The notes: generated by a model from the letters alone, not told the origin. Positions 1 through 46,306 are shown, numbered from the stretch's first letter. The stretch: DNA of 64,000 nt from an uncultured Acidobacteriota bacterium (GCA_963756455.1 CAVWNC010000004.1:958397-1022396); one strand, 5' to 3'. Numbers and translations: made by a program.

Positions 1-22478
<22,478 letters not shown>

Positions 22479-22646
22479 GATCTCGGCCTGGAGCAATTGC
22501 TCAATTTTTATTTCAGCTCCTCCCATTCAGCAGCTCGCCTCCTGTTGCGCCAACCTTATGATACGAATTTGGTTTGTTGTCGGTTTTCTTCTCAGCTGGA
22601 TGATAGGATTACGGCCTGCTGGACCTGCGTTTTCCTGGAGGACACC

Positions 22647-25062: not shown

Positions 25063-25119
25063 GAGATGAGATTTACTCCGCAGATCGAATAGAATCTGCT
25101 TGACAAAGCGGGAGTCACC

Positions 25120-27579
25120 ATGGACCTCTTCCGACAGGATCTCCGCCAAGCCCTGCGGCAGCTGGCGAAAAACCCGGGCTTCGCCCTGATCGCCGTCCTC
25201 ACCCTGGCGCTCGCCCTCGGCGCCAACACGGCGATCTGGAGCGCCGTCGATGGCCTGCTGCTCCGGCCCCTGCCGTTTCCCGAACCCGACCGCCTAGTCC
25301 AGTTGATGCGTCGCTCTCCGCAGGCGACTTCGTCGGACGTCGCCCTCCCCCGGTTCCTCTACTGGCGTAACCACGCTCCGAGCTTCGTCCACCTCGCCAC
25401 CTATGACGAGACAGGCTCGGGATTCAACCTCGCGGGAAACGGCCTTCCCGAGCGCCTCGTGGGCTCGCGGGTGAGCCGCGACTTTCTGAGCGTCCTCGGC
25501 ACCCGTCCGGTCCTCGGGCGCGACTTCCTACCCGAGGAGGACCGTCCCGGCGCCCGGCACGTCGTCCTGCTCTCCCACGGGTTGTGGACCCGGCGCTTCG
25601 GCGCCGACCTCGGTGTCCTCGGCCGCGAGCTGCGGTTGAACGACGAGACCTACACCGTCATCGGCGTGATGCCGGCCGGCTTTCACCTCCCAGCCAAGGC
25701 GGAGCTCTGGACGCCTCTCCAGATCGACCCCGCCAGCCGTGAGAAGGCCAACTACCTGGGGGTGACGGGACGTCTTCGGCGTGGGATCAGTCTCCGCGCG
25801 GCGCGCGCGGAGCTGGCGGTCGTCGACCGCCAGTTCTGCGCCGCCTTCCCGGACCTGGTCTTCAACGCCTGGAAGGGGACCGCCGTCGCCCCGCTCCAGG
25901 AGCACCTTTACGGCCAGCTCCGGACGGCCCTCCTGATCCTCCAGGCGGCCGTCTTCTCGGTCCTTCTGATCGCCTGCGTCAACCTCGCCAACCTTCAATT
26001 GGCCCGCGCCGCGGCACGCCGGCGGGAGATCGCCATCCGCAATGTCCTCGGGGCCGGCGCGGGACGGATCGTGCGCCAGCTGTTGACCGAGAGCCTGCTC
26101 CTCGCGCTCGTCGGCGGCGCCGTCGGCCTGCTCGTCGCGATGATGGCGCTGCCACTCCTTCTCTCCCTCTCGCCCACCCAGGTCGATCTCCTGACGCCGC
26201 TTCGGATCGACGGCAGCGCCCTCGCTTTCACTGCCGGCCTGGCGCTCCTCGCCGGCCTGCTCTTCGGTCTCGCTCCCGCCGTCAGCGCCGCCCGCTTCGA
26301 CCCCCATACCGCGATCCAGGAGAGCGGCAACCGCGCAACCGGGAGCCGCCGCGGCATGCACGTCCGCCGGCTGCTGATGGTGGCCGAGGTAGCCCTGTCG
26401 GTCATCCTCCTTACCGCCGCGGGACTTCTGGTCAAGAGCTTTTCCGGCCTGCTCGGAACCTCTCCGGGATTCGCGCCCGACCACGTGCTGACGGCCACGC
26501 TCTCGCTTCCCGCGGGGCGCTACGGCACGCCCGACGCTCTCGACCGCTTCGACCGCCAGGTGCTCGCCGGGCTCATGGCGATCCCGGCGGTGACCCAGGC
26601 GGCCTTCGCCACCAACCTGCCGCTCGTGGGCGGGCCGCACCTGCCGTTCGCGATCGAGGGGCGCTATCGCAGCAAGGAGAGCGACGAGGGAACCGGTCTC
26701 GCCGAGTACCGGGCGGTGACCGCCGACTACTTTACCGCCCTGCGCATCCCGCTCGTCGCCGGCCGCAGATTCACCGCCACAGATCGCTTGGGCGCTCCCG
26801 GCGTGGCGCTGGTCAACGAAGCCGCGGTCCGCCGCTTTTGGCCTCACGGGGACGCGCTCGGCGCCCGCATCACCTGCGGCCAGCCGTACATGCCCGAGAT
26901 CGCCGACCTGGCGCCGCGAACGATCGTCGGCGTGATCCAGGACGTGCACGAGCTGGGGGTGAACAAAGAGGCGCCGGCGATCGTCTACCTGCCGGTCGCC
27001 CAGATGGCCCCCTCCCTCACCGCCATGCTCACCGCCTTCCAGCCGATCAACCTCGTCGTGCGCACGGCGGGAAAACCGCGCGGGCTCGCTGGCGCCCTCA
27101 ACCGGGCCGTCTGGGCGGTCGATCCCGAGCAACCGGTCACCGATGTGCAATGGATGGACGAGCTGCTCTTCGGCTCGCTGGGCCTCCAACGCTTCGGCGC
27201 CCTCCTTCTGGGCATCCTGTCGCTCATCGCCCTCCTCCTCGCGGCGATAGGAATCTTCGGTGTCCTTTCTTACCTGGTCGAGCAGCGCACCCGCGAGGTC
27301 GGTGTGCGCATGGCCCTCGGCGCCACCAGCGCCGGGGTCCGGCGGATGCTGGTGGGCCAGGGTATGGCCGCCGTTTTCGCCGGGGTGGTTCTCGGCCTGC
27401 TCGGCGCTCTCGCCCTCACCCGGCTCCTCTCCGGCCTGCTCGTCGGTGTCAGCATCTACGACCCCGCTGCCTTCGCCCTGGCCTCGCTGCTCCTCCTCGG
27501 CGTGGCCCTCCTCGCGTGCGGCCTGCCTGCGTACCGGGCGAGCCGAGTCGACCCCGTCGTGGCGCTGCAGCGAGATTGA
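25120..27579 (+). CDS. Second ADOP-family FtsX-type permease, 819 aa; tandem paralog
   Basis: [62 protein letters not shown]... has the same architecture as the upstream gene. No ABC ATPase gene lies adjacent. Confidence 0.8.
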
Positions 27580-28956: not shown

Positions 28957-29665
28957 CGGTTCTCCTTCTCTTCGTTTGAGACCGAGCTGACGCCCCACGC
29001 GACATTCGCGCTGGAATCAGCACAGTCAGGTGATGGATCTCTTGTCACGTCCTGCCCTTCGTTCCCACTGCCTGATTCCACGAGAAGGTCAGCTCGGTTC
29101 GACCCTCGCCAGATTTGCTCTAATCTTCTTTTTTACTATCTATCGTAAGTATAGAACACTGCCTGCGCCATCGGCCACCTTCCCATGCATTTTCGCGGGC
29201 CGCGAACCTCGCCCGGCCCTCCCAACGCCGAATTGTCGAGCTGTAGCCGGTGCGGACCCTGCAACGCTTGGTCGTCGCGCGCAAGCGTTCGTCCACGTGT
29301 CGCAAGCCTGGATAGCGACGCGTAACGCTGGCGCGTTGATAGACTGGAAGCCGTTTCGGACCAGAGAGTTCCCTGCTGAAGGGGCCGCGTCGCGACGGAG
29401 CCGCCGTCCCACGTCTTCCTCAGCCACAACCGACGCTTCGGGATTCGCGTCCACCAGGCCGGGGAGCACCCGGCGAAGCTTCGCGATTCCTGGCCCCCGG
29501 TAAAGTTTCTCGGAAGCGTGAGCGCCTTTATTTAAGGATAGCCCCTTATCGGCGAGTCCAGCCAGCGGGTACGATGTTCCGACGAGGCCAATTTCTGTCG
29601 GCGTACGTGAAGGTAGCCTGCGGCGAACTGGCGCTGGCCGCGCTGCCTACCCCAAAAAACGACCA

Positions 29666-30707
29666 TTAAGGCCGAAAGTGTTCCCGGGGCGACCGCCAAG
29701 GTCCGACCAGGAGATCGTGCGTCCCCTTTTCGACTTGCGCGGGGAAATCGGGGTAGTCGCAGCGGATCTCCTCGGCGACGCAGTTCAAAGTGGAAGCAAG
29801 CCGCCGATCGTGCTGGTCGATGCTTGCGAGTTGCCGGCGGATGCGCCGCCAGCTGATCCGAGATGGAGTCACAGCCGACCAGCATCGGTAGAGGAGGTAA
29901 GACGCACCGTCCCAGAAGAGGGGACGGTTGTGAAACCTGCGCATCAGACGGAGAGAGAGGCAGTACCACAGGGCTATTGCGCAGGTAGTCATGGAACGCT
30001 GGGTCGAGGACGATTCCGTACCGCTTCAGGTCGACGGGGAGAAACGAGAGCTGGGAGCGGTTCTCCGTGGCCAGCAGTCGCCGGGCCTCGGCTCCGTCCC
30101 TCGATGTATAGGCCCTCTGGATCGGCCTCATGTTGAAACGGGCCGTGCCGGTTGGGGTCCGCAGGAGCAAGGTCATCGAGAGGCTGAGGAGACGCTGCAG
30201 GCGCTCCTCGAAGCGCCGGTACTGCACCCCGGAACGGGCGAGTTGAAAGGCTTCAAAGAAGTCGGTCAGGCTGGCGAAGTTGACGAAGCCGGTGTCGTAG
30301 GTAAGGGTGGTGATCCAGGCGAGAAGGGCGCGGTCGGCGCCGAAGGGGATGGGAACGTCCGGCTCCGTCGTCGAGAAGTAGACGGTCAGGTGGGTGTCAG
30401 AGCCGAGTTGGGCTTCGCGGGGGATTGTCGTCAGCGGGCTACGTTTGTAGGGGAAGCCGCAGAAGACCAGAGCCTTGGCGGCGAGGAGGAGGGAGTTGGG
30501 GTCGTCGGGCCGATCGAGAGCAGGCGGGAGGGAACTCTGAACGGATGGGATCGAATCGTGCAGGCGAGTCGCGCCCTCGACGGTGGGTAGGTTCAGCGTC
30601 CCGAGGATGTCCGAGAGGGACGCCGGAGCGCCTGTCCTGCAACTGCTCGGTCCACAGTCGAACCGGGGCTCGCGGGACCTCCCCGTGGCTTTCTGGAGGC
30701 GGCTCAT
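29666..30707 (-). pseudogene. Replication-initiator-like (RepA/RPA-like) paralog, copy 1, frameshifted
   Basis: ORF 29532..30707 matches copy 2 through ...NSPVVLPL, then diverges into an off-frame tail. The conserved C-terminus (RLMRRFHNRPLFWDGASYLLYRCW...) reappears in a different frame as ORF 29666..29992. A 4-nt length difference sits at about 29955-29975 (ggagagagaggcagtacc vs ggagaggcaggacc in copy 2). GAGGAGGG RBS lies before ATG 30707. Confidence 0.6.
29672..30600. repeat. Direct repeat copy 1 (about 930 bp, about 90-95% identical to 32495-33430)
   Basis: Near-identical nucleotide runs, e.g. 29681 ttcccggggcgaccgccaaggtccgaccaggagatc vs 32501 ttcccggggcggccgccaaggtccgaccaggagatc. The encoded protein cores are near-identical over about 230 aa. 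Confidence 0.8.
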
Positions 30708-32407: not shown

Positions 32408-32491
32408 AAGAATACAATTTGTCGGGAGTTGTACACAAGTCCCGACGTTTTGGGTGATACCTGGGCTGCGAGGAGTACCGAAAACCGCTCC

Positions 32492-33538
32492 TCACGGCCG
32501 GAGGTGTTCCCGGGGCGGCCGCCAAGGTCCGACCAGGAGATCATGGGTGCCCTTCTCGACTTGTGCGGGAAAGTCCGGGTAGTCGCTCCGAATCTCCTCG
32601 GCGACGCAGTTCAAGGTGGAAGCAAGCCGCCGATCGTGCTGATCAATGCTCGCGAGCTGCCGGCGGATACGCCGCCAGCTGATCCGGGACGGGGTCACGG
32701 CCGACCAGCACCGGTAGAGGAGGTACGACGCGCCGTCCCAAAAGAGAGGGCGGTTGTGGAACCTGCGCATCAGACGGAGAGGCAGGACCACAGGGCTGTT
32801 GCGCAGGTAGTCATGGAACGCCGGGTCGAGAACGATTCCGTACCGCTGCAGGTCGACAGGGAGAAAGGATAGCTGGGAACGGTTCTCCGTGGCCAGCATT
32901 CGCCGGGCCTCAGCTCCATCCCTCGGTGTATAGGCCCTCTGGATCGGCCTCATGTTAAGACGGGCCGTGCCGGTCGGGGTCCGCAGGAGCAAGGTCATCG
33001 AGAGGCTGAGGAGACGCTGCAGGCGCTCCTCGAAGCGTCGGTACTGCACTCCGGAACGGGCGAGTTGGAAGGCCTCGAAGAAATCGGTCAGGCTGGCGAA
33101 GTTGACGAAGCCGGTATCGTAGGTGAGGGTGGTGATCCATGCGAGCAGGGCTCGATCGGCACCGAAGGGGATGGGGACGTCCGGCTCCGTCGTCGAGAAG
33201 TAGACGGTCAGGTGGGTGTCGGAGCCGAGTTGGGCCTCGCGGGGGATCGTCGTCAGCGGGCTACGTTTGTAGGGGAAGCCGCAGAAGACGAGCGCTTTGG
33301 CGGCGAGGAGAAGGGAGTTGGGCTCCTCGGGACGGTCTGCCAGGACCGCCAGAGAGGCTGGAACGGATGGAGAAGCGGATAAGGACGAAAGGTCTGCGGC
33401 GGTCTGCTGGCCTGCCCCCTCCGCAATTGGTAGGTCGATGGTGCCGAGGATGTCCGAGAGGGACGCCGGGGAGCCTGGCCTACGGCCGTCGAGCCGCGGT
33501 TTGGCGGCTCTTTTCGTGGGAGTTTGGTGGCCGTTCAT
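32492..33538 (-). CDS. Replication-initiator-like (RepA/RPA-like) protein, copy 2, intact (349 aa from ATG 33538)
   Basis: GGGAGG RBS lies 5 nt before ATG 33536-33538. The conserved core FSTTEPDVPIPFGADRALLAWITTLTYDTGFVNFASLTDFFEAFQLARSGVQYRRFEERLQRLLSLSMTL loosely resembles the FSxSTKP / SGG-Y-LE-AL-RL-GTS pattern of plasmid 'replication initiator protein A' families. The family assignment comes from memory of the motif pattern and not from a search. Confidence 0.45.
   Translation of the reverse strand: MNGHQTPTKRAAKPRLDGRRPGSPASLSDILGTIDLPIAEGAGQQTAADLSSLSASPSVPASLAVLADRPEEPNSLLLAAKALVFCGFPYKRSPLTTIPREAQLGSDTHLTVYFSTTEPDVPIPFGADRALLAWITTLTYDTGFVNFASLTDFFEAFQLARSGVQYRRFEERLQRLLSLSMTLLLRTPTGTARLNMRPIQRAYTPRDGAEARRMLATENRSQLSFLPVDLQRYGIVLDPAFHDYLRNSPVVLPLRLMRRFHNRPLFWDGASYLLYRCWSAVTPSRISWRRIRRQLASIDQHDRRLASTLNCVAEEIRSDYPDFPAQVEKGTHDLLVGPWRPPREHLRP
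32495..33430. repeat. Direct repeat copy 2
   Basis: See copy 1. Both are in the same orientation and flank the abiE pair. Confidence 0.8.
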
Positions 33539-34524: not shown

Positions 34525-34767
34525 GGAGAACCGGGCCCCTAGGAGCGCGAGGTGCGCTCTGACTTAGGTGGACGGTACAGAAGCGGCTCGACCTTAAGCG
34601 GCCTCCTCTTCGCCTGACCTGTGGCCGACGTGTACTCGCTGGACGCGGTAGCCTGGCTCACCCTCGTCCGCGGCAATGGACGGCCTCATTCTAAATCGTG
34701 CACGTCTGCTTACGAATTTCACGCTTCTGGATTCAAACTGTAGGCTCCTCTTCTAGAGAGGGGAGGG

Positions 34768-34795
34768 GTGAGAGCGGGGAGGTCCCTGCTCTCAC
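34768..34795 (-). terminator. Hairpin 10 nt downstream of the lanA stop
   Basis: gtgagagc-ggggaggtccct-gctctcac gives an 8-bp perfect stem and a 12-nt loop. There is no U-tract. Confidence 0.4.
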
Positions 34796-34804
34796 CTTGA
34801 GGTC

Positions 34805-35017
34805 TTAGGGACAGACGGCCGGCGGGCAGGGGCTGCAGATGGAGGTGCGAGTGCTGCAGGCACCGATGGTCAGGGCGCCGTTTACGCCCTTCAGCTGGTC
34901 GCCGGTGACGTCGATCGACGCCGCCGGATGGGCCGGCAGGGCGGCGCGCTCGGCGTCGCTCAGGCTGAGGTAATAGTCGAGATCACGGAAGGCGCGCGAC
35001 ACATGGAGCTTCTTCAT
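34805..35017 (-). CDS. lanA: Class II lanthipeptide precursor peptide candidate (70 aa)
   Basis: MKKLHVSRAFRDLDYYLSLSDAERAALPAHPAASIDVTGDQLKGVNGALTIGACSTRTSICSPCPPAVCP. It has an acidic, helix-prone leader ending ...QLKGVNGA. The C-terminal 23 residues carry 4 Cys and 6 Ser/Thr. A GGAGAG RBS precedes the start. ATG 35015-35017 overlaps the LanM TGA 35014-35016 (ATGA). Confidence 0.7.
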   Translation of the reverse strand: MKKLHVSRAFRDLDYYLSLSDAERAALPAHPAASIDVTGDQLKGVNGALTIGACSTRTSICSPCPPAVCP

Positions 35018-38000
35018 CGTTCTCTCCTGCTGCGAGCCGGCGCGAGGGAATCCCACGCCGGAGGCCTAAGGCTGGGCGGCGGCTCCAGGCGGAGCACCGA
35101 GGGCACACGGCCCGGAGCGGCGAGGCGCAGCAGGCCGTAGCCGACGCCCGCCAGGCCGACCATCAGGCCCGGCGGCTCGGCGGCGATGGGCAGGCCGAGC
35201 CGCCAACCGCGTTCGCCACGTTCTCCACGATCGCCACATTCTCCGATATCGGCCAGGATGCCGCCGGCGAGACGGCCGGCACGCGCCGCGAGCGCCGGAT
35301 CGTCCAGGATCGCGGCGGCATGTTGCACCACTTCGAGATTGCCGATATCGCCATGGCACAGGCAGTGGCCGCGGCCGAAGCCACCGGCGAGGGTCGTGGC
35401 GACGGCGGTCGCCGCGTCCTCGCGCAGCTCGCTGTCGGCATGGCGCAGGCCGTCGAGGCGGGAGAGGGCGATGCCTGGAGCGCCGTGGCACCAGGCGTTG
35501 AGGTAACGCGCCCCTCCGCCTGCGGCCTCGCCGCCGGCCCGGAGGTCGGGCCAGTTGCGGGCGGTTGGCGAGTAGAGCGAGCGTTCGTAGGCGACCGCCG
35601 CCAGGGCGGTGGCATGGTAGCGCGGCTCGCCGCCGCACGCCTCGGCGAGCTGCCAAAGCGCCCACGAGATGCCGGCGGCGCCGTGGGAGAAGCCGGCGAG
35701 CGGCGGCCCCGGTGCCACCACCGACGCCCAGCCGAGCCCCTGCGGCATGGCGACCGCCCGCGCGAGCAGGCGCTCGCCGCAACGCACCGCTAGATCGAGG
35801 AGGCGCGGCGACGGTCGCAGGCGGTGCAGGCCGAGCAGGCAGACCAGGCAGCCGGCGACGCCGCCGACCAGGTCGCAGTGCTCGTCCGCGTCGATCGCCG
35901 GGCCGAGGGAGTGGGCGATGCGCTCGGCTTCGTCGAGCAGGGCATCGTCCTGCCACAGCGCCCCTAAATGGGTGAGGGCGAAAATCGCGCCGCCCCAGCC
36001 GGAATAGGCGCCGACGGCAGTCAGCAGTTGGGAGCCGGCGGCCACCTGGCTGCGCAGGGTGACGGTCGCGGCCCGCGCCAGGGCGGTGAGCTGCGGTTCG
36101 CCGGCGATCTCTCCCAGGAAGGCGAGGAAGAGGGCGATCCCTGGCACGCCGAGGTGGAGGTCGGCGCCGGCGGGGACGACCCGCCAGCGGCGGCTGTCCT
36201 GCGGCAGGTCGGGGCCGAACCAGGTGGCCGCCGCGCCGCTCTGGAAAGCGAGCGCCGTCAGGCTGCGCCCCACCGCCATCGCCGCCTCCAGCAGCTCCGC
36301 CGCGCTGGGCGGACCCGAGGTCTCCTGCAACTCGTACTCCGGCGACGGCGCGGGCCGGCCGGTCGCCGCCAGGAGGGCGCTCCGCGCCAGCCACGTCTGG
36401 CGTTCGATCTCCGCCTCGTCGAAGCTGTCGAGACGCGCCGCGACCCGCGCCATGCCGCTTTCGTCCAGGAAGTCCGCGATGCGCTCGCCGTCGCTCGCCA
36501 GCAGGTCGCGCGATCCCGGCCAGGTGGTGAAGAACGGAATGTCGCCGCCTCGCAGGTCGCGATGCTCGGCCGGTACCAGGCGCTCGAAGGCGGGCCGCTC
36601 CGGAACCACCGTCCAAAGCAGGTCGAGCAGGCGCTCCCGTTCCAGCGCATCGCCCAGCACGTAAGGATGTTGGGCGTCGTTGTAGAGGGCGGCGTAGGCG
36701 GCGGTCTGGCGCAGCAGCACGCGCACCGGGGCCGTGGCGAACGGGGCGAGCGGCCCGGCCGGCGCGGCGAGCTCGGCGCGGTGCGCCGCCAGCAGCCGCG
36801 CCATGCGGACGAATCCCTCGATCAACGCCTCGATGTAGCCGGCGAGCGGTACCGCGGCATCGTTCAGGGTCGGCTGGTGCTCGCCTCCCACTGGCATTTC
36901 GGTCTGCCGCTTGAGGAAGCGCATACGGTCGGTACCGGTGTCGGCCAGGCCGAGCACGGTCTGCGGCACCAGCTGGCCGGCGGTGGCGGTCAGGCCGCTC
37001 AAGTCGATGCCGGCGCCACCGCCGGCTTCACCGCCCCAGCCTTCATCGGGAAGGAAGCCGACGCGCATCACCGTGTCGGGCAGCTCGGCCGCCGCCGCGG
37101 TGCCGCCGAAACGCTGGTCGAGGGGATGGAACAGCGCCTCCAGGTCGAGCAGCATGGGATGCTCGCCCACCGCCATCAGGTTCTCGTGGTGCATATCGGT
37201 GGCCGAGAGCACGAACAGGAGCGCCAGAAAGCCGCCCTGGCGCTGATAGAAGCGCTCCACCTCCGCCGCGCTGGCGCAGGGGGCCGGCGCCACGGCCTCC
37301 ACCCAGCCGTGGTCCCCGCAGTCGACCACCTTCAGCTGCCTGAAGGCGGGGGTGAAGCCGCGCTCCACGCACCAGCCCAGCAGCTCCTGGAAAGCCGCCT
37401 CGACAGCCATCGGCCGCGGCTTGTAGATGAGCTGCAGCCCCGAGGCGAAGCGCAAGCGCGCCACCGAGCGGCCGCCGCGGTGCGCGTCGCCCAGCCCACT
37501 CGCGATCTCCACCACCTCCCCAGGCTCGCCCGCCGGAGAGAAGGCGGCGCGCCAACGGTCGTCCGCCGCCGCCAGGTGGCCGCAGATCTCCAGGCCGAAG
37601 TCGGCCCAGCGGCCTGCCGTCTCGACCACTTGGCGGGCGAGCACCGGATAGCGGTGCAGGATCTCCAGGGCGCCGGCCGGCTGACGCAGGTATGCAATGA
37701 AGCTGTGGAAACGCTCCTCGGGGGTGGCGCCGGCGAGCCTGCCGTCGAGGCCGGCGAGATGCAGCTCGAGCACGAGGGTGCGTCCGAGCAGCAGCTGGAT
37801 ATGCGAGGTGAGACCGCGACTCAGCATGGCGGCGACCGCCGCGGGCGTGAAACGCGGCGTTGCCGAAGCGGGCGAAGCGGCGGCCAGCGCCTCGAGACCG
37901 GCGAGCAGGCGTGAGAAGGCGCGGTCCAGCACCGGCCGCGCAGCCTCCAGGAAGGGCGCCTGACCGCTCGCCGCCAGCACCTCCGGCGGCAGCGGGAAAC

Positions 38001-38343
38001 GTTCCGGCGGCGGCGCTCCGGCGTAGGCCGCCGCCAGCTCCTGCAACCAAGGCGGCGAGGCATTGAGGGCGGTGAGGGCGGCGGCCAGCTCGGCGGGGGC
38101 CTCGCCGAGGAGGCTGCGCAGGCGCGCCGGGGTCACCCCTTCGACGGCCAGACGGCGGGCGAAGAAACCGTCGGCAGCGAACGGCTCCTGGGCGCGCCAG
38201 CGCGCGAACCGCCGCCCGGCGCGCTGCCGCGCCGCCGCGGCGCGCGGCGGGGGCAGCGTGCGGTGGCAGGCGGCGCGTTCGGCCAGCCCGAGCGCCGCGA
38301 GCCAGTTCGGCGATGCGAGGAGCGCTGCGACGTCGGGGGCCAC
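35014..38343 (-). CDS. lanM: Class II lanthipeptide synthetase LanM (N-terminal dehydratase plus C-terminal LanC-like cyclase)
   Basis: LanM signatures LQLIYKPRPMAVE and SATDMHHENLMAVGEHPMLLDLEALF. Cyclase zinc-ligand motifs NAWCHGAPGIALS and HCLCHGDIGNLEV. The track ORF runs to 38397 (MRCARLSHRG...). An internal GTG at 38341-38343 lies 3 nt downstream of a perfect GGAAGGAGG and is the more likely start. Confidence 0.85.
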   Translation of the reverse strand: MAPDVAALLASPNWLAALGLAERAACHRTLPPPRAAAARQRAGRRFARWRAQEPFAADGFFARRLAVEGVTPARLRSLLGEAPAELAAALTALNASPPWLQELAAAYAGAPPPERFPLPPEVLAASGQAPFLEAARPVLDRAFSRLLAGLEALAAASPASATPRFTPAAVAAMLSRGLTSHIQLLLGRTLVLELHLAGLDGRLAGATPEERFHSFIAYLRQPAGALEILHRYPVLARQVVETAGRWADFGLEICGHLAAADDRWRAAFSPAGEPGEVVEIASGLGDAHRGGRSVARLRFASGLQLIYKPRPMAVEAAFQELLGWCVERGFTPAFRQLKVVDCGDHGWVEAVAPAPCASAAEVERFYQRQGGFLALLFVLSATDMHHENLMAVGEHPMLLDLEALFHPLDQRFGGTAAAAELPDTVMRVGFLPDEGWGGEAGGGAGIDLSGLTATAGQLVPQTVLGLADTGTDRMRFLKRQTEMPVGGEHQPTLNDAAVPLAGYIEALIEGFVRMARLLAAHRAELAAPAGPLAPFATAPVRVLLRQTAAYAALYNDAQHPYVLGDALERERLLDLLWTVVPERPAFERLVPAEHRDLRGGDIPFFTTWPGSRDLLASDGERIADFLDESGMARVAARLDSFDEAEIERQTWLARSALLAATGRPAPSPEYELQETSGPPSAAELLEAAMAVGRSLTALAFQSGAAATWFGPDLPQDSRRWRVVPAGADLHLGVPGIALFLAFLGEIAGEPQLTALARAATVTLRSQVAAGSQLLTAVGAYSGWGGAIFALTHLGALWQDDALLDEAERIAHSLGPAIDADEHCDLVGGVAGCLVCLLGLHRLRPSPRLLDLAVRCGERLLARAVAMPQGLGWASVVAPGPPLAGFSHGAAGISWALWQLAEACGGEPRYHATALAAVAYERSLYSPTARNWPDLRAGGEAAGGGARYLNAWCHGAPGIALSRLDGLRHADSELREDAATAVATTLAGGFGRGHCLCHGDIGNLEVVQHAAAILDDPALAARAGRLAGGILADIGECGDRGERGERGWRLGLPIAAEPPGLMVGLAGVGYGLLRLAAPGRVPSVLRLEPPPSLRPPAWDSLAPARSRRER

Positions 38344-38523
38344 GATCCTCCTTCCCAAGGGGAATGTGCCGCGGTGGGACAGCCGGGCACATCGCATACT
38401 CTGTTAATTGAAGATTATTTTCAATAGAGCCATTGCAGGATATCGGGAGCTGAGGACGCCGATCGGCAGCCCGCGGCCACAGACCCTCCGATCCTGCCAT
38501 ACTGTGGTCCAAGGGGGCACTCT

Positions 38524-40185: not shown

Positions 40186-41670
40186 CTAGAAGGAAACGCC
40201 CTTGAGGGGGGAGGTCGGCCGATACTGGAGGTAGAGTGCCAGAAGAGCCGAGAGCGACAACTGGTCGAGCTGGTTCCTCCGAGCTTCGACGTCGAGCTTC
40301 TGGTTCAGCATGAATTCGGACAGGATGATGCCCTGCGTGAGAGCCGGCCGCGGATCGAGGATCGCCTCGGCGCCAAATTCCATCGAGATCAGTGCGAGGC
40401 GCCGCAGCTCCTGCTCGAGCGGGCCTCCACGCAGTGGACCGTTGCGACGGACGAGCCGTTCGAGCCCTCCTTCCGGTGAGCTGTAGCCCGCGAGCTCGCG
40501 GGCCTCCTTCCCGGACTCGCCTCCGACGATCTCCGCGGCGTCCTGGTCGAAGTCGAAGACGTCGTCCCAGATCGTTCGCCGCTCATTGTGGATGAACTGA
40601 TCCGTGCCGAGCACGCGATAGAGCTGTCGGGGCGGCACGATGAGCCGGCCCTCGGAGTGGGCGCGGTAGAGCACATACCACTGGAGCCGGTGGGTATGAG
40701 GGCCATGATCGAAGGGAGTGCCGACGTCGAAAATCTGATACATCCCGCGGAGGATCTCCCGGAACCCGTCGCGGCTGAGAAGATCTCGCACCTCCTGGCG
40801 AGGATGGAAGCCTTCCACCTCCTCCGCCTCGCTCAGGGCTCGGTCCAGGCTGATCTTCTGCTCTACCATGTGGGTTTGAAGCTCGCGCAGCTTCGTCTCG
40901 ACATAGCGGCGGTCCATCAGGATCGCCTTGGCATCGGCGATCTGATCGATCAGCACCCTGGGAACCCGGGGATAGCGCCGCTCAAGCCGCGAGGAGATGC
41001 CGCTCGCCCGAGAATCACGCTCCCGCCCGATCGCGCCGCCCTTGCCTCGCACCTGGGACGGCGCCGGCAGCCGCGTTCCCCATCGGCGTTCGTAGTCCTT
41101 CTCCGCCCGACTCCGCTCCGCCTCCGCCTCCTCGACCGCTTCCCAGTCGACCTGCCAGAGATAGGAGATCGAGTGAGATTTGGGAGGCTCGTAAGGCCGC
41201 CGCGGAGGCTCGCCGCCGCCACCGCTCGCCGCCAGGCCTCCGAACCCCTGCCAGGGATGGATCGGGTTGGCGACCAGAACGGCTCGCTGGGCGACCGTTC
41301 CGGACGGCCGCACCGCTTGAGGAGGGATACGCGCTGTATGGGGTGCAGGAGTGACCCGCGGGGCGAAAGAAGGCTGCGCGGCTGGGGGTGGCCGGAGTGC
41401 TCTTCTTCCGCTTGGCGCCGCCGACGCGGCCGATGCGGGATGGACGGGAGGTCCGGCATGCAGGCTCTTCCCGGGAGCCGGCGGAGCGGGAGCCGGGCGG
41501 GTGAGAGCGGCGGCCACGTGAGGCGCCAGGGGCCGCCCTCCCGCGACCCCCATCCGCTGCGGCTGGGCAGGCGCCGGCGCGGGGTTCCGGGCTGGAACGG
41601 CGCGATGAACCGCGAGCGCCGCCGCGACGTGCGGCGCGGTTCCCGGAAGAGATCTGCCCCTGGGGATCAT
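40186..41670 (-). CDS. Hypothetical protein. Pro/Ala-rich N-terminal third, then a conserved-looking C-terminal domain of unknown function. The true start is uncertain.
   Basis: The C-terminal two thirds read like a globular protein (e.g. ...YVETKLRELQTHMVEQKISLDRALSEAEEVEGFHPRQEVRDLLSRDGFREILRGMYQIFDVGTPFDHGPHTHRLQWYVLYRAHSEGRLIVPPRQLYRVLGTDQFIHNERRTIWDDVFDFD...). The N-terminal 170 aa are low-complexity. It is divergent from the ABC1 kinase gene. Confidence 0.4.
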   Translation of the reverse strand: MIPRGRSLPGTAPHVAAALAVHRAVPARNPAPAPAQPQRMGVAGGRPLAPHVAAALTRPAPAPPAPGKSLHAGPPVHPASAASAAPSGRRALRPPPAAQPSFAPRVTPAPHTARIPPQAVRPSGTVAQRAVLVANPIHPWQGFGGLAASGGGGEPPRRPYEPPKSHSISYLWQVDWEAVEEAEAERSRAEKDYERRWGTRLPAPSQVRGKGGAIGRERDSRASGISSRLERRYPRVPRVLIDQIADAKAILMDRRYVETKLRELQTHMVEQKISLDRALSEAEEVEGFHPRQEVRDLLSRDGFREILRGMYQIFDVGTPFDHGPHTHRLQWYVLYRAHSEGRLIVPPRQLYRVLGTDQFIHNERRTIWDDVFDFDQDAAEIVGGESGKEARELAGYSSPEGGLERLVRRNGPLRGGPLEQELRRLALISMEFGAEAILDPRPALTQGIILSEFMLNQKLDVEARRNQLDQLSLSALLALYLQYRPTSPLKGVSF

Positions 41671-41757
41671 GGGCCTAAAAATACCATGTGTCGTTGGGCT
41701 GCTCCGCTCGGCGGCAGGACCGGCACGGCATCCAGGCCTCGGCTATACTCCGCGGCG

Positions 41758-43410
41758 ATGCGGCGAGCCCTGCTCGATCTCTACCGGGCGTGCCTCCTGG
41801 GCCTCTACGGCGCCCGTTGGGGAGCGATCTACCTCGCGCACCTGCCGCGATGGCCGCGATGGCCGCGACATTCGCCGCACCGGCTCACCGCCAGCTACTG
41901 TCTCCGCCGCCTCATTGAGGACATGGGGGTGACCTTCGTCAAGCTGGGGCAGTTCCTCGCCATCCGCTACGACCTGCTCCCGGCCGCGGTCTGCCGCGAG
42001 CTGTCGAACCTCCTCAACGAGGTGCCGCCCTTGGGCTTCGAGGCGGTGCGCGCGGTCGTCGAGGCGGAGCTCGGCCGGCCGCTCGGCGAGCTCTTTGCGA
42101 GCTTCGAGCCGACGCCCCTGGGTTCGGCCTCGATCGCCCAGGTCCACCGGGCGCGAGCCCACGACGGCCATCTCCTCGCGATCAAGGTCCAGCGGCCTGG
42201 GGCGGAGACCGTCCTCCGTTCCGACATCAGGAACCTCCTCCGCTTGTCCTGGCTCGCCGACCGTTTCCACCTCCTGGGCAGCCTCTCGATGACCGAGAGC
42301 GTCCGCGAGGTGGCGGACTTCACCCTCCGCGAGATCGACTTCCTCAACGAGGGGAGGACCGCCGAGCGGGTGCGCCGGGAGGCCCCACCGTTCGTGCACG
42401 TGCCGGAGATCCGCTGGGACCTGACCACCCGCCGGGTTCTCGCCATGGAGCTCGTCGAGGGCAAAAGCCTCCTCGCGGTCTGCGAGCGCGCCGAGGCCGG
42501 CGATCCCGACGCCTTCTCGCACCTGCTCCCGGGCGTCGATCCGCAGCGGGTGATGGCGGACCTCGCCCGGGCCTGCCTCGACCAGCTCTTCACGACCGGC
42601 GTCTTCCACGGCGACCCGCATCCCGCCAACATCATCGTCGGCGGAGACGGCCGCATCGCCTTCGTAGATTTCGGCATCTTCGGCGAGCTGCCGAAGCGCC
42701 ATGCGGAGCGCCTCGCGGCCCTCCTCGGCAGCCTCGCCGCGGGACGCCTGGAGGCGGCTTACCGGTGCTACATGGCGCTCGCCACGCCCACCGAGGAGAC
42801 CGACCTCCCCCGCTTCCGGCGCGAGATGCTGGCGCTCCTCGGCGCCTGGTACGGCGCCGTCCGAACGGCTTCGTCAGGCTCGGCGGGCGCCGCGGAGCGG
42901 CTCGCTGCGCACTATCAGATGGAGGTCTTCCAGCTCATGCGCCGGCACCGGCTGCGGACGGAGCCTGACCAACTCCTCTTCTGGCGCACTCTCACCATTC
43001 TCGATGCCACCGCCTACCGCTTGCCCGTCGAGTTCGACCTCCTGGCCGCCATGAACGAGTTCTTCCGGGCGCGGCAGCAGCAGCCCGCGGAGCGCGCCGC
43101 CCGCCGCCTCGCCGACCCCGAGAGGGTTCTGGGGCTCGCGGATCTCCTCGTCCATGCCGCCCATGCCGCCGATGCCATTCATGCCGGCGGACGCGGGGAG
43201 CGTCCCCTCCGGGTCGTACGACGTCCCCGCCTTCCCAGCGCTGGCGCTCTCGCGGTCAAGCCGATCGTCCTCGTCCTGCTCGCGATCTCCACGGCCCTCC
43301 TCGCCCTGGGCCCCGCGGGCGGCGCGCTCGGACGATTCCTGGCGGCTGCGGTCGCGGCCTCCTGCGCCGGGGCCGCGGTCTTCTGGAGCGGGGAGAGGCG
43401 GCGACTGTGA
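41758..43410 (+). CDS. ABC1/UbiB-family atypical protein kinase
   Basis: FVKLGQFLAIRYDLLP, LGSASIAQVHRA, LAIKVQRPG, HGDPHPANI and FVDFGIFG are all ABC1/ADCK signatures. The track ORF (from 40588) is real only from ATG 41758. The upstream part is antisense to the minus-strand gene. Confidence 0.8.
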   Translation: MRRALLDLYRACLLGLYGARWGAIYLAHLPRWPRWPRHSPHRLTASYCLRRLIEDMGVTFVKLGQFLAIRYDLLPAAVCRELSNLLNEVPPLGFEAVRAVVEAELGRPLGELFASFEPTPLGSASIAQVHRARAHDGHLLAIKVQRPGAETVLRSDIRNLLRLSWLADRFHLLGSLSMTESVREVADFTLREIDFLNEGRTAERVRREAPPFVHVPEIRWDLTTRRVLAMELVEGKSLLAVCERAEAGDPDAFSHLLPGVDPQRVMADLARACLDQLFTTGVFHGDPHPANIIVGGDGRIAFVDFGIFGELPKRHAERLAALLGSLAAGRLEAAYRCYMALATPTEETDLPRFRREMLALLGAWYGAVRTASSGSAGAAERLAAHYQMEVFQLMRRHRLRTEPDQLLFWRTLTILDATAYRLPVEFDLLAAMNEFFRARQQQPAERAARRLADPERVLGLADLLVHAAHAADAIHAGGRGERPLRVVRRPRLPSAGALAVKPIVLVLLAISTALLALGPAGGALGRFLAAAVAASCAGAAVFWSGERRRL

Positions 43411-45023
43411 GCCCACCGCCATCCCCACCGACGGCCGCCGAGACTGCCCGGACCGGCGGCACCGGAGCCAGGCCGGCCTTCCCGGCGCTCTTCCGGCGGT
43501 CGCTCGAACGGCTCGGCCCCATCTTCGTCAAGATCGGCCAGTTCCTCGCCCTCCGGCCGGACCTCGTCCCGCGCGAGCTCTGCCTGGAGCTCCTGGACCT
43601 CGTCGACCGGGTTCCGCCCTCGGCGGACGAGTCTCCCGCGGAGGTCTTCGCGCAGGACTTCGGCCGGAGCCTCGAAGCGGCCTTCTCGGCGTTCGATCTA
43701 CGGCCGGTGGCGGCGGCATCCCTCGCCCAGGTCTACCAGGCGGAGACCTGGGACGGCCAGCAGGTGGCGGTCAAGATCCTCCGTCACGGCATCCACGAAC
43801 GGGTGCGGAGGGACCTCGCCCGCGCCCGCCGGCTCGCCCCGCTGGTCGATCTCGTCCGTCTCGTCCCGGGGGTATCGCTCCGCGAGGCGCAGCGGGAGAT
43901 CTCGCGCTGGATGCTCGTCCAGCTCGATCTCTTAACGGAGCTCAGAAACCTCCAGCGGATGGGAGCGCTCCTCGCGAGCGACCCCCACGTGCGGGTGCCG
44001 CGGGCCCTCCCCCAGCTTTCGAGCGGCCGCATCCTCACCATGGAGTTCCTCCCGGGCGTCCTCCTGAGCGATCTCCTGCGCCTGGTCAGGAGCGGCTCGC
44101 CCGGCGCGCCCGACGCAATCGCCGCTCTGGGCTTCGACCGCGACGTCCTGGCCGAGAACCTCCTCGGAACCTGCCTCGACCAGGTCTTTCGGCACGAAGT
44201 GTTCCTCGCCGACCTCCACCCGGGCAACCTCATCGCCCTGCCGGGCAACGTCATCGGCCTTGTCGACCTCAGCCTCGTCGAGACGCTCGAGATCGAGCTG
44301 CGGCCGGGCGTCCGCCGCTTCGCCGCCGCCGCCTATGGGGACGACCCGGAGGGCATGGTCCGCGAGCTCCTGGAGCTCCTCGTCCCAGGGGAGGGCGCGG
44401 ACCCGGAGGCGCTGCGGAACGATTTCCTCGCCGAGCACCACCGCTTTACCCGACTCCGCGATCTCGCGGGAGAGCCGGTGGAGGACGAGTCTCCCCTCGC
44501 CCACTCGATGATCAGCGTGCTGCGCGCCGCCCGGCGTCACGGTATGACGATCCCGCCGGGCCTCCTGACGCTCTACTCCTCGCTCCTCACCGCGGAGACC
44601 GTGGCGCGGCAGTTGGGCTCGCGGGCGAGCCTCGCCTCGGTGGGCAAGGAGTTCTTCAGGCGCCTGCGGATCGAGCGTCTTCGAGCGCAGCTCCAGCCGG
44701 AACGGATCGAAGCCGCCCTCCTCCCCGTCCTCGAAGCCCTGGACGAGCCGCCCGAGCGCTTCCTCCACCTCCTCCAGAGCCTCGCCGAAGGCAGCTTCGT
44801 CCTCAACGTCGAGAGCACCGACTCGCCGGCCAACCGCCGCGGCGCCAACCAGCGGACCCGGCTCCTCACCCTGGCGATCCTCTGGGTCGGCCTCGCCATC
44901 CTGCTGGCCTCCGGGCGCGACACCCTGGTGGCCGGACGGATCCCCCTTTCCTCTCTTCTCTGGGTCGCCTCCGGAGCCACTTTCCTATGGCTGATCGTCC
45001 TCTGGCGCAAGCTCCCCCGCTAA
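43407..45023 (+). CDS. Second ABC1/UbiB-family kinase with C-terminal TM helices
   Basis: FVKIGQFLALRPDLVP, AAASLAQVYQA, VAVKILRHG, DLHPGNLI, LVDLSL. C-terminal hydrophobic segments LLTLAILWVGLAILLA and LLWVASGATFLWLIVLW. The GTG start overlaps the upstream TGA (GTGA at 43407-43410). Confidence 0.8.
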   Translation: MSPPPSPPTAAETARTGGTGARPAFPALFRRSLERLGPIFVKIGQFLALRPDLVPRELCLELLDLVDRVPPSADESPAEVFAQDFGRSLEAAFSAFDLRPVAAASLAQVYQAETWDGQQVAVKILRHGIHERVRRDLARARRLAPLVDLVRLVPGVSLREAQREISRWMLVQLDLLTELRNLQRMGALLASDPHVRVPRALPQLSSGRILTMEFLPGVLLSDLLRLVRSGSPGAPDAIAALGFDRDVLAENLLGTCLDQVFRHEVFLADLHPGNLIALPGNVIGLVDLSLVETLEIELRPGVRRFAAAAYGDDPEGMVRELLELLVPGEGADPEALRNDFLAEHHRFTRLRDLAGEPVEDESPLAHSMISVLRAARRHGMTIPPGLLTLYSSLLTAETVARQLGSRASLASVGKEFFRRLRIERLRAQLQPERIEAALLPVLEALDEPPERFLHLLQSLAEGSFVLNVESTDSPANRRGANQRTRLLTLAILWVGLAILLASGRDTLVAGRIPLSSLLWVASGATFLWLIVLWRKLPR

Positions 45024-45045: not shown

Positions 45046-46306
45046 AGTGAGGCTTTCCCCCGAGGACGCCATGTTCTGGCGTTTCCACGGTCCGGTCACG
45101 CCGCAGACGATCGCCCTCGTGACCTTCCTCGACGGCGTTCCGGACCTCGATCGCCTGAGAGAGCTCTTCGCGCGGACGATCGTCGCCTATCCGCGCATGC
45201 GGAGCGTCGTTCGGCCGGGCGTCCGGCCAGGAGAGCCGCCGACCCTCGTGCCGCTCCCGAAGATCGACCTCCGCCAGCACGTCGAGGCCCTCACCCTGCC
45301 TGAGACGGCCGGCCGCGCCGACCTTGAAGCGGAGCTCGCCCGCCGCTTCTCGACGCCGCTCCCCATGGACCGGCCGCTCTGGCACCTCCTCCTCGTCGCG
45401 CTCCCGGTGTCGGGAGCCCCGGCGGCGATCCTTTGGCGGATTCACCACCTGGTGGCCGACGGCGTCACGGCCCTCGCCTTCGCGCACGAGATCCTCGGCG
45501 GCGCCGACGAGCGCCGCGGCTCGCCGCCGCCGCCCGCGCTGCCGGCCTCCCGGCCGCGGCCGCGGCTCCTCGCCCTCCTGCGCAGCCTGCGCGCCTGGGG
45601 CCGGCTCGACCGCGGGCCCAGCCCGCTCAACGGGGAGAGCTCGCCGGAACGCCGGTTGACCCCCGTCGACTTGGACCGCGCGACGCTCCGCCGGCTGATG
45701 CGCCGCTTCGACGCCAGCTCACTTGAAGTCCTGCTCAACGTCCTCACCTCCGCCCTGCGGCGCTACCACGAGCATCATGGCGCGCCGGTCGACCGCGACC
45801 TCACCGTCGTGATCCCGTACGCCGATCAACCGCCGTCGCGCGCCCGCTCCCAGGGGAACTTCTTCGGCTCGCGGTTCGTCCGCCTGCCCTTGGGAGAGCC
45901 CGACCCGGGCCGCCGCTTCGACGCTCTCCGGCGCGCCGTCCGGGAGGCGGGAGAGAACGGGGTGGACGAGCTGCTGCGTTTCGTCAGCGGCAAGTTCCAC
46001 CGCCTGCCCCGTGGCTTCCAGCGCGACCACCTGTGGGACTTCGCCCTGCGCTGCAACGCCGCCTGCACCGTGCTGCCCAGCCGGCTGGGCAAGGCGCGGC
46101 TCGACGGGCACGCGATCAGCGCCCACTATGCCGGCGCCGCCCTCCCCTTCTCGCACGGCGCCGCCTTCACCTTCCTCGCAACCGAGAACGCCCTCCGCGG
46201 GATGATCGTCTCCGATCCGGCGATCGTGCCGGACCCCGAAAATCTGCGCGACTTCCTTCTCGCGGGAGTGGAGGAGCTCGCTACTCGGCAGGCTCGCGGG
46301 GCGTGA
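45046..46306 (+). CDS. WS/DGAT-family acyltransferase (wax ester synthase / diacylglycerol acyltransferase-like)
   Basis: MRLSPEDAMFWRFHG (N-terminal LSPxD..F motif) and the catalytic HHLVADGVTA (HHxxxDG). It is the real 3' portion of track ORF 43154..46306. The GTG start at 45046 follows a GGTGGA RBS. Confidence 0.65.

What the first reader, a model, noticed from the sequence alone, without database searches (positions are those of the whole stretch)
34768..38343. Minimal class II lanthipeptide locus with lanA downstream of lanM and translationally coupled to it (ATGA)
Unambiguous LanM (LIYKPR, TDMHHEN, CHG zinc ligands) is followed by a 70-aa precursor whose ATG overlaps the synthetase stop. 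The precursor core ALTIGACSTRTSICSPCPPAVCP is Pro-rich with 4 Cys and 6 Ser/Thr, giving up to 4 thioether rings. The leader ends in ...KGVNGA and has no classical GG. No LanT peptidase-transporter, LanP, immunity or regulator genes lie within 10 kb on either side. The only candidates are an unknown divergent 4-TM protein and the ADOP permeases 10 kb away. Gene order, coupling and the absence of dedicated export and processing genes are all atypical.
Basis: partly seen in the sequence, partly recalled or inferred. Interest (0 to 1): 0.7.

Follow-up and report, generated by a model that had tools for sequence, protein, structure and literature searches.

The report
Two-gene lanthipeptide operon, exporter encoded elsewhere
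This is a real but fairly ordinary class II lanthipeptide operon (synthetase gene followed by its precursor gene) from an Acidobacteria-like genome. Its leader carries a standard double-glycine-type cleavage signal, so the missing protease-exporter is most likely encoded elsewhere in the genome.

Summary
lanM (35014-38343, minus strand) is a full-length LanM (TIGR03897, 853 bits). A 70-aa lanA (34805-35017) starts in an ATGA overlap with the lanM stop.

- **Leader:** it is not atypical. It matches the mersacidin/lichenicidin leader model (TIGR03898, 44.8 bits against a cutoff of 23.5). It ends in G-A with hydrophobic residues at -4, -7 and -12, which is the recognition signature of C39 peptidase-ABC exporters (PCATs).
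- **Gene order:** lanM then lanA is the rule in this clade (18 of 18 informative loci, LanM identity 41-88%), always with unrelated flanks.
- **ATGA overlap:** it occurs only in the window and its nearest relative. Elsewhere lanM stops 48-96 nt earlier.
- **Exporter:** the 64-kb window has no PCAT. The most distant relative has PCAT plus HlyD genes 6 kb away, and another has a HlyD gene next to lanA.
- **Paralogues:** the source contig (3.64 Mb) appears to carry two more LanM paralogues and a second lanA.

New here: a conserved 10-bp RNA hairpin with compensatory changes lies just upstream of the lanA ribosome-binding site.

Verdict: a new member of a known kind, of moderate interest.

The parts
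35014..38343 (-). lanM, class II lanthipeptide synthetase (1109 aa from GTG 38343; the ORF stays open up to an ATG at 38397). The last ~17 codons are a lineage-specific extension that reads through the hairpin and the lanA ribosome-binding site.
   Evidence: TIGR03897 853 bits, DUF4135 + LANC_like. Closest solved structure is LicM2, 6ST5, E = 2e-107. Start and AAGGAGG site (38347-38353). Identical 1109-aa protein P0284.
35037..35061 (-). Conserved RNA hairpin CCGGCGUGGG-AUUCC-CUCGCGCCGG, 8 nt 5' of the lanA ribosome-binding site. It lies inside the lanM coding tail here and is intergenic in most relatives.
   Evidence: 16 distinct loci: 91.3% of cells paired against 33-48% with partners slid. 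5 of 10 pairs change on both sides. Covariation 0.333 against 0.197 shuffled, 0/500. 13 G.U cells on the sense strand against 6 A.C. Found only at this junction. No Rfam family.
35024..35028 (-). lanA ribosome-binding site AGGAG
   Evidence: Read. AGGAG lies 10-13 nt before the ATG in 18 of the 20 loci examined; L022 has GGAG and L026 has no recognisable site.
34874..35017 (-). lanA leader (aa 1-48), ending ...V(-12)TGDQL(-7)KGV(-4)NGA. The ATG (35015-35017) overlaps the lanM TGA (35014-35016).
   Evidence: TIGR03898 44.8 bits (cutoff 23.5), aa 8-48 matching model positions 4-44 of 44. L42 and G47 are invariant; V37 and V45 are nearly invariant.
34805..34873 (-). lanA core LTIGACSTRTSICSPCPPAVCP plus stop. 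The family motif is [ST]-x-x-C-[ST]-P-C-P-x-x-x-C-x at the C-terminus.
   Evidence: C61, S62, P63, C64, P65 and C69 are invariant in alignment A1. The same motif appears in further representatives and loci.
34767..34796 (-). Terminator-like GC-rich hairpin GGUGAGAGC-(12 nt)-GCUCUCACC, 8 nt after the lanA stop. It marks the end of the two-gene operon.
   Evidence: A hairpin is predicted downstream of the lanA stop in all 19 loci folded; z-scores range from -1.1 to -5.8 and are below -2 in 14, with the window at -4.8. Weak Rfam miRNA-like hits here only reflect the hairpin.

Best explanation
This is a self-contained two-gene operon, lanM then lanA, bounded by a terminator-like hairpin. It makes a class II lanthipeptide in an Acidobacteria-like diderm bacterium.

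**Proposed pathway**
- LanM binds the conserved leader (RAxRDxDYYLSLSxAERAxLPxHPA).
- LanM phosphorylates and eliminates Ser/Thr in the 22-residue core.
- Its zinc-dependent LanC-like domain then adds the four Cys to the dehydro residues, giving up to four thioether rings. These probably include a conserved [S/T]-x-x-C ring and rings built on the invariant C-[S/T]-P-C-P-x3-C tail.
- The leader is removed after Gly-Ala, and the peptide is exported by a C39-peptidase ABC transporter (PCAT) working with HlyD-type adaptors.
- In this genome the PCAT is encoded away from the operon. It may serve several paralogous lanM-lanA cassettes.

**Expression.** lanA follows lanM on one transcript. Here the lanM stop overlaps the lanA start (ATGA), so ribosomes finishing LanM can reinitiate on lanA. 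A conserved RNA hairpin just 5' of the lanA ribosome-binding site, together with the 3' hairpin, most likely yields or protects a stable lanA-only mRNA segment. That would raise precursor over enzyme despite the inverted gene order.

**Shown:** gene identities, family membership, conservation of order, the hairpin and its covariation, and the PCAT recognition signature.

**Inferred:** chemistry on this substrate, ring pattern, PCAT in trans, hairpin function and bioactivity.
For: - **LanM:** full-length match with catalytic and zinc motifs.
- **lanA leader:** above the TIGR03898 cutoff. G-A with conserved hydrophobic -4, -7 and -12 matches the PCAT rule in PMC10885120.
- **Selection:** lanA is conserved, with pN/pS below 1.
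- **Adjacency:** lanM then lanA on one strand in 18 of 18 loci with enough upstream sequence, always with unrelated flanks. The P0010 locus shows the same order.
- **Operon end:** hairpin after lanA in all loci.
- **Exporter:** a PCAT with an intact C39 Cys motif, flanked by two HlyD genes, lies 6 kb from lanA in L013. A HlyD homologue abuts lanA in L026.
- **Paralogues:** two further LanM paralogues (P0311 55%, P0314 56%) and a second lanA (P0007, 59%) are recorded on a contig of the same length, 3,639,412 bp, as the window's own LanM and LanA.
- **Intercistronic hairpin:** supported by covariation.
Against: - No PCAT was found for this genome. The window has none, the source contig could not be retrieved, and no PCAT on that contig is among the best 120 of 2573 PCAT hits (inconclusive).
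- No product has been characterised for this core family (no literature hit for CSPCPP), so ring pattern and activity are guesses.
- The invariant C-terminal part of the core has three Cys but only two well-conserved Ser/Thr. One Cys may therefore use a variable upstream Ser/Thr, form a disulfide or stay free.
- The hairpin's role is untested. It carries no U-tract and does not mask the ribosome-binding site.
Confidence: 0.75

Rival explanations
1. The leader is removed by a general or unrelated protease, and export or immunity is handled by other membrane proteins, for example the ADOP/MacB-type permeases 7-12 kb away or the divergent 4-TM protein. This is what the first reader suggested. No PCAT is involved.
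For: There is no PCAT in the 64-kb window. About one-third of lanthipeptide clusters lack a nearby protease gene (PMC8960859). ADOP permeases also lie within 10 kb of lanA in L007 and L008.
Against: The leader keeps the complete PCAT recognition signature (G-A, -4, -7, -12) as its most conserved C-terminal feature. PCAT plus HlyD genes lie close to lanA in L013, and a HlyD gene abuts lanA in L026. The 4-TM protein has no homologue in any other locus. ADOP genes are a large paralogous family without an ATPase partner here, and are absent from most loci.
Confidence: 0.15
2. The pair is an orphan remnant of a once larger lantibiotic cluster and no longer makes a product.
For: It lies next to a lower-GC stretch (62-65%) with a duplicated, partly frameshifted gene and an AbiEi-like ORF. 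There are no accessory genes.
Against: Both ORFs are intact with strong ribosome-binding sites. The same bare two-gene unit persists across LanM identities of 41-88% in unrelated contexts. lanA is under purifying selection. All LanM motifs are retained. A structured intercistronic element is maintained by compensatory changes.
Confidence: 0.05
3. The conserved inverted repeat before lanA is not an mRNA-stability or processing element. It could instead be a U-tract-less attenuator or terminator that limits read-through from lanM, or a DNA operator for a dimeric regulator.
For: It is a GC-rich perfect stem placed directly after the ancestral lanM stop. The loop's 5' G-A-U is invariant, which suggests sequence-specific recognition.
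Against: There is no U-tract, and only 8-22 nt remain between the stem and the ribosome-binding site. lanA therefore has no room for its own promoter downstream and must be read through the hairpin. Attenuation would lower precursor relative to enzyme, which is the wrong direction. Compensatory changes and sense-strand G.U pairs (13 against 6 A.C) fit RNA better than a fixed operator sequence. In the window the element is translated as part of lanM.
Confidence: 0.3

Closest known systems
Mersacidin / lichenicidin-alpha / haloduracin-alpha type precursors (NCBIfam TIGR03898) with their LanM enzymes; closest solved enzyme is LicM2 (PDB 6ST5)
   Same: The leader belongs to the same model, above cutoff. 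The leader ends in a GG/GA site. A single bifunctional LanM has a CHG zinc site. LicM2 is the best solved-structure match, E = 2e-107.
   Different: The core has no mersacidin-like C-T-x-T-x-E-C lipid II ring and no Glu (comparison from my own knowledge of those peptides). There is no partner beta-peptide or second lanA in the window. No LanT, LanP, LanFEG or regulator lies in cis. lanA follows lanM. The host is a high-GC diderm, not a Firmicute.
PCAT-processed double-glycine leader peptides (LahT/LahA, ComA/ComC, MfuT in Myxococcus fulvus)
   Same: G-A at -2/-1 and hydrophobic residues at -4, -7 and -12. In relatives L013 and L026 PCAT and/or HlyD genes are nearby, as expected for export across two membranes.
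   Different: The transporter is not linked to the operon in the window or in most relatives. Cleavage has not been tested.
Prochlorosin system (ProcM with scattered ProcA genes and an unlinked transporter)
   Same: Biosynthetic, processing and export genes are dispersed. Several related precursors with similar leaders and different cores occur in one genome.
   Different: Each lanA here has its own adjacent lanM, and there are at least three LanM paralogues, rather than one promiscuous enzyme. The leader is TIGR03898-type, not Nif11/NHLP. The zinc site is CHG rather than CCG (ProcM feature from my own knowledge).

Membership tests
Class II lanthipeptide synthetase LanM (TIGR03897) | Full-length match to the LanM model above the curated cutoff | tested here: met
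   853.1 bits against a cutoff of 304, model positions 4-932 of 932
Class II lanthipeptide synthetase LanM (TIGR03897) | N-terminal dehydratase domain (DUF4135) plus C-terminal LanC-like cyclase domain in one polypeptide | tested here: met
   PF13575 aa 250-625 and PF05147 aa 743-1102
Class II lanthipeptide synthetase LanM (TIGR03897) | Kinase-like catalytic motifs and Cys/Cys/His zinc ligands | tested here: met
   LIYKPR, TDMHHEN, SHGAAG, WCHGAPG and CLCHG read in the translation and aligned to LicM2
Class II lanthipeptide synthetase LanM (TIGR03897) | Dehydrates and cyclises its precursor | not testable with these tools
   Needs co-expression and mass spectrometry
Mersacidin/lichenicidin family type 2 lantibiotic precursor (TIGR03898) | Leader matches the family model above cutoff and ends in GG/GA | tested here: met
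   44.8 bits against a cutoff of 23.5; aa 8-48 match model positions 4-44 of 44, ending at G47-A48. JGI names the homologues the same way.
Mersacidin/lichenicidin family type 2 lantibiotic precursor (TIGR03898) | Mersacidin-like lipid II-binding core ring with a conserved Glu (C-T-x-T-x-E-C) | tested here: not met
   The core LTIGACSTRTSICSPCPPAVCP has no Glu, and its conserved motif is different. The reference motif is from my own knowledge.
Two-peptide lantibiotic (alpha + beta) | A second, different lanA and a second lanM in the same cluster | tested here: not met
   A profile search of all ORFs of at least 25 aa finds one lanA per locus in the window and the loci then held, L001-L017. The P0010 locus has a second 69-aa gene of unknown relation.
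PCAT (C39 peptidase-ABC) substrates | GG/GA/GS at -2/-1 with hydrophobic residues at -4, -7 and -12 | tested here: met
   G47-A48, V45, L42, V37. G47 and L42 are invariant; V45 and V37 are nearly invariant. The rule is from PMC10885120.
PCAT (C39 peptidase-ABC) substrates | A cognate PCAT encoded in the cluster | tested here: not met
   None in the 64-kb window or within 10 kb in most relatives. Present 6 kb away in L013, and a HlyD gene abuts lanA in L026.
PCAT (C39 peptidase-ABC) substrates | A PCAT somewhere in the same genome | tested here: inconclusive
   The source contig is not retrievable. No hit with that contig length is among the best 120 of 2573 PCAT homologues.
Prochlorosin-type system | Nif11/NHLP leader and one promiscuous LanM serving many precursors | tested here: not met
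   The only NCBIfam hit is TIGR03898. Each lanA has its own lanM. At least three LanM paralogues sit on the contig.

The most novel reading that the evidence does not exclude
Acidobacteria, and a few Myxococcota, carry a family of portable lanM-lanA cassettes. Several occur per genome, each with its own synthetase and a distinct core ending in C-[S/T]-P-C-P-x3-C. All would be served by one unlinked PCAT/HlyD exporter. In these cassettes a conserved intercistronic RNA hairpin, not gene order, would set the precursor-to-enzyme ratio, and the Pro-rich tail would fold into a ring topology not yet seen in lanthipeptides.
Probability: 0.25. Interest if true: 0.55.

Novelty: new member of a known kind. 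Interest (0 to 1): 0.35.

Why it matters
This locus is a compact, ready-to-express two-gene unit for an uncharacterised lanthipeptide core family from a phylum with almost no characterised RiPPs. The leader analysis tells an experimenter how to release the core: a C39 domain such as LahT150 or the L013-type PCAT, cutting after Gly-Ala. It also shows that 'missing transporter' calls in genome mining can be settled from the leader sequence alone. The covarying hairpin between lanM and lanA is a small, testable lead on how operons with the enzyme gene first still over-produce the substrate peptide. None of this overturns current understanding of lanthipeptide biosynthesis.

Tried and rejected
1. 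**Anti-SD model.** The sequence 5' of the hairpin looked as if it paired with the lanA ribosome-binding site in several MFE folds. The site's pairing probability is 0.57, against 0.55 for shuffled upstream sequence, so I rejected it.
2. **uORF in the hairpin loop.** 11 of 16 loci have AUG in the loop. Reading the frames in alignment A4, 7 end in the ATGA and 4 run in frame into lanA. Others have AUU or AUC, and no ribosome-binding site precedes it. It is not a conserved ORF. The invariant loop G-A-U stays unexplained.
3. **Bacteroidales 'relatives' (L014-L017).** These are pattern artefacts in low-GC DNA that match only ICSPCPP.
4. **Synteny.** No neighbouring window gene recurs beside lanM-lanA elsewhere, except ADOP permeases in L007 and L008.
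5. **Rfam.** It has no family for either hairpin.
6. **Promoter scan.** It found no sigma-70 consensus site. A TTGAAA-N17-GAGTAT candidate, partly shared with L001, is only a guess.
7. **Paralogous loci.** I could not fetch them from the source contig (P0007, P0311, P0314).
8. **PCAT on the source contig.** Looking for it through contig length was inconclusive.
9. **Literature.** Searches found nothing on this core motif or on Thermoanaerobaculia lanthipeptides of this type.
10. **Gene order in the wider core family.** It is not universal: L030 has lanA and lanM convergent.
Full report
**1. What is there**

The window is about 70% GC. A long ORF lies on the minus strand at 35014..38397.
- It is a full-length class II lanthipeptide synthetase: TIGR03897, 853 bits against a cutoff of 304.
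- It carries DUF4135 (aa 250-625) and LANC_like (aa 743-1102).
- The closest solved structure is LicM2, 6ST5, E = 2e-107.
- The real start is probably the GTG at 38343. It follows AAGGAGG and aligns with the ATG start of the closest relative. This gives the 1109-aa protein that public gene calls also report.

The 70-aa ORF at 34805..35017 begins with an ATG that overlaps the lanM TGA (acgATGAag), with AGGAG 6 nt upstream of the ATG.

**2. The precursor is real and its leader is ordinary**

The peptide scores 44.8 bits on NCBIfam TIGR03898, the mersacidin/lichenicidin family (cutoff 23.5). Residues 8-48 cover the model to its last position, so the leader ends at G47-A48.

Ten homologues at 54-97% identity exist, and JGI names several with the same family name. 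In their alignment L42 and G47 are invariant, and V37 and V45 are nearly invariant. These are positions -7, -2, -12 and -4.

A review of RiPP leader proteases states two rules. C39-peptidase ABC transporters (PCATs) cut after GG, GA or GS, and they recognise hydrophobic residues at -4, -7 and -12 (PMC10885120). The leader carries the complete double-glycine-type signature.

The core is LTIGACSTRTSICSPCPPAVCP. The invariant part of the family is C61-S62-P63-C64-P65...C69, with a Ser/Thr usually three residues before C61.

lanA shows pN/pS of 0.34-0.77 against six relatives.

A profile search of 1.8 billion cluster representatives finds 1675 proteins sharing the leader (E up to 0.001), with very diverse cores. 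The C-[ST]-P-C-P tail defines one subgroup. No paper in the searchable library mentions this core.

**3. Context in the window**

There is no transporter, protease, immunity gene or regulator.
- No ABC ATPase signature occurs anywhere in the 64 kb.
- A PCAT query finds nothing.
- Neighbours are a Cupin_5 protein, unknown ORFs, two ADOP duplicated permeases (TIGR03434, 1003 and 908 bits), two ABC1 kinases, a WS/DGAT-like protein and a luciferase-like monooxygenase.
- Further out lie a giant NRPS ORF (3..22526, at least 7508 codons, running off the window) and PKS genes (47582..63999).
- Only one lanA-like ORF exists in the window.

**4. Related loci**

Exact-protein look-ups and two collection scans produced 18 distinct loci with enough upstream sequence.
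- In all 18, a LanM homologue (41-88% identical) ends just before lanA on the same strand. The P0010 locus has the same order.
- The named genomes are Acidobacteriota or Thermoanaerobaculia MAGs, plus one Archangiaceae MAG.
- The flanking genes differ in every case. No window neighbour recurs except ADOP permeases in L007 and L008.
- Every locus has a hairpin shortly after the lanA stop; its strength varies. In the window it lies at 34767-34796.

The unit is therefore a self-contained two-gene operon, and lanA after lanM is the rule for this clade. It is not universal for the wider core family, because L030 has lanA and lanM convergent.

**5. The ATGA overlap is derived**

The overlap is unambiguous only in the window and L001, whose LanM proteins are 88% identical. 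In L003, L006, L010, L011, L013, L019, L027 and L028, lanM ends at a TGA, TAA or TAG 48-96 nt before the lanA ATG. L007-L009 show the same stop position, but their lanM reading frame is broken (probably assembly indels), so I set them aside.

In the window and L001 that stop is missing. LanM continues for about 17 more codons (...SLRPPAWDSLAPARSRRER) and ends in the ATGA.

Termination-reinitiation coupling is plausible here. It is a lineage-specific feature, not the design of the system.

**6. A conserved RNA hairpin before lanA**

Aligning the junctions revealed an inverted repeat, CCGGCGYGRG-(5 nt)-CYCRCGCCGG, ending 8-22 nt before the lanA ribosome-binding site. In the window it is at 35037-35061.
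- On 16 distinct sequences, 91.3% of cells form standard pairs, against 33-48% when partners are slid.
- Five of ten pairs change on both sides.
- The covariation score is 0.333 against 0.197 for shuffles, 0 of 500. RNAalifold predicts the same stem.
- There are 13 G.U cells on the mRNA strand, against 6 A.C cells that would be G.U on the other strand.
- The more distant L012, L013, L022 and L026 have different hairpins at the same place.
- The motif occurs nowhere else in the window or the loci. It matches no Rfam family.

I tested whether its 5' flank masks the ribosome-binding site. It does not (0.57 against 0.55).

No promoter can fit between the stem and the ribosome-binding site, and there is no U-tract. 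The most economical reading is therefore a stabilising or processing element at the 5' end of a lanA-only RNA, which is bracketed at its 3' end by the terminator hairpin. This would let the precursor outnumber the enzyme even though its gene comes second. It is an inference and is untested.

**7. Where the exporter is**

In L013, the most distant member (LanM 42% identical), a 766-aa protein lies 6 kb downstream of lanA, flanked by two HlyD-family genes. It carries Peptidase_C39, ABC_membrane and ABC_tran domains and an intact Cys motif. In L026 a 61%-identical HlyD homologue lies about 130 nt from lanA.

Close homologues of this PCAT are common in Thermoanaerobaculia and other Acidobacteriota.

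Together with the conserved recognition signature, this supports a PCAT/HlyD exporter that is linked in some lineages and unlinked in the window's lineage. I could not show one in the source genome. The contig is not retrievable with these tools, and the contig-length trick was inconclusive for PCATs.

**8. More cassettes in the same genome**

The window's LanM (P0284) and LanA (P0160) are recorded on a 3,639,412-bp contig (NCBI, ENA). None is in the window.

The genome therefore very likely holds three or more cassettes of this clade. That fits a shared exporter acting in trans.

**9. Comparison and verdict**

In mechanism this is a standard class II lanthipeptide pathway with a double-glycine-type leader.
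- **Membership met:** LanM, the TIGR03898 leader family, and the PCAT-substrate signature.
- **Membership not met:** the mersacidin-like core ring, the two-peptide architecture, and the prochlorosin-type system.

The differences from textbook clusters are organisational:
- the enzyme gene comes first;
- there is a structured intercistronic element;
- there are no accessory genes in cis;
- there are several cassettes per genome.

About one-third of lanthipeptide clusters lack a nearby protease gene (PMC8960859), so that feature alone is not remarkable. Annotation pipelines already name these proteins correctly.

I rate it a new member of a known kind, interest 0.35. The uncharacterised core family and the covarying hairpin are the parts worth following.

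Noticed in passing
window 3..22526 (-): A single stop-free reading frame of at least 7508 codons running off the window start. It is a multi-module NRPS with repeated Condensation / AMP-binding / PP-binding domains. The ORF listing does not show it because it runs off the end.
   Followed up: partly
window 46281..63999 (-): Type I PKS genes at 47582-57823 (KS-AT-MT-KR-ACP ... with a C-terminal alpha/beta hydrolase) and 57088-63999 (KS-AT-DH-MT-KR-ACP, running off the window end), followed on the same strand by a luciferase-like monooxygenase. The lanM-lanA pair therefore sits between an NRPS and a PKS region.
   Followed up: partly
window 29652..30638 and 32478..33481: A direct duplication of about 1 kb (87-93% identical, 2.82 kb apart) inside a lower-GC stretch (62-65%). 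Each copy encodes a ~390-aa protein of no known family, and the first copy is frameshifted. A weak AbiEi-antitoxin-like ORF (31799-32407) lies between them. It is possibly a mobile-element remnant next to the operon.
   Followed up: partly
window 35047..35052 (hairpin loop) and the same column in 15 other loci: The closing G and the first two loop bases (G-A-U) of the intercistronic hairpin are invariant. 11 of 16 loci read AUG there. The frames are inconsistent, so it is not a uORF, and the conservation is unexplained.
   Followed up: partly
source contig outside the window (proteins P0311, P0314, P0007): Two more LanM paralogues and a second lanA of the same clade are recorded on a contig of the same length (3,639,412 bp) as the window's genes. 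Their loci could not be fetched.
   Followed up: partly
protein P0020 (2619 aa, not in the window): The leader profile matches this very long protein in 9 separate stretches. It is either a repeat protein built from leader-like units or a gene-calling artefact across tandem precursors. I did not examine it.
   Followed up: no
P0010 locus (JGI 3300042731, 5.8-kb contig, no DNA held): lanM is followed by lanA and then by a second 69-aa gene on the same strand. It may be a tandem second precursor in that relative.
   Followed up: no
window 22456..27579 (+): Two adjacent ADOP-family duplicated permeases (TIGR03434, 1003 and 908 bits) with no ABC ATPase gene anywhere in the 64 kb.
   Followed up: partly
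window 40588..45023 (+): Two consecutive ABC1 atypical-kinase genes, followed by a WS/DGAT-like acyltransferase region. The stop-free frames are much longer than the domains, so start codons are uncertain.
   Followed up: no
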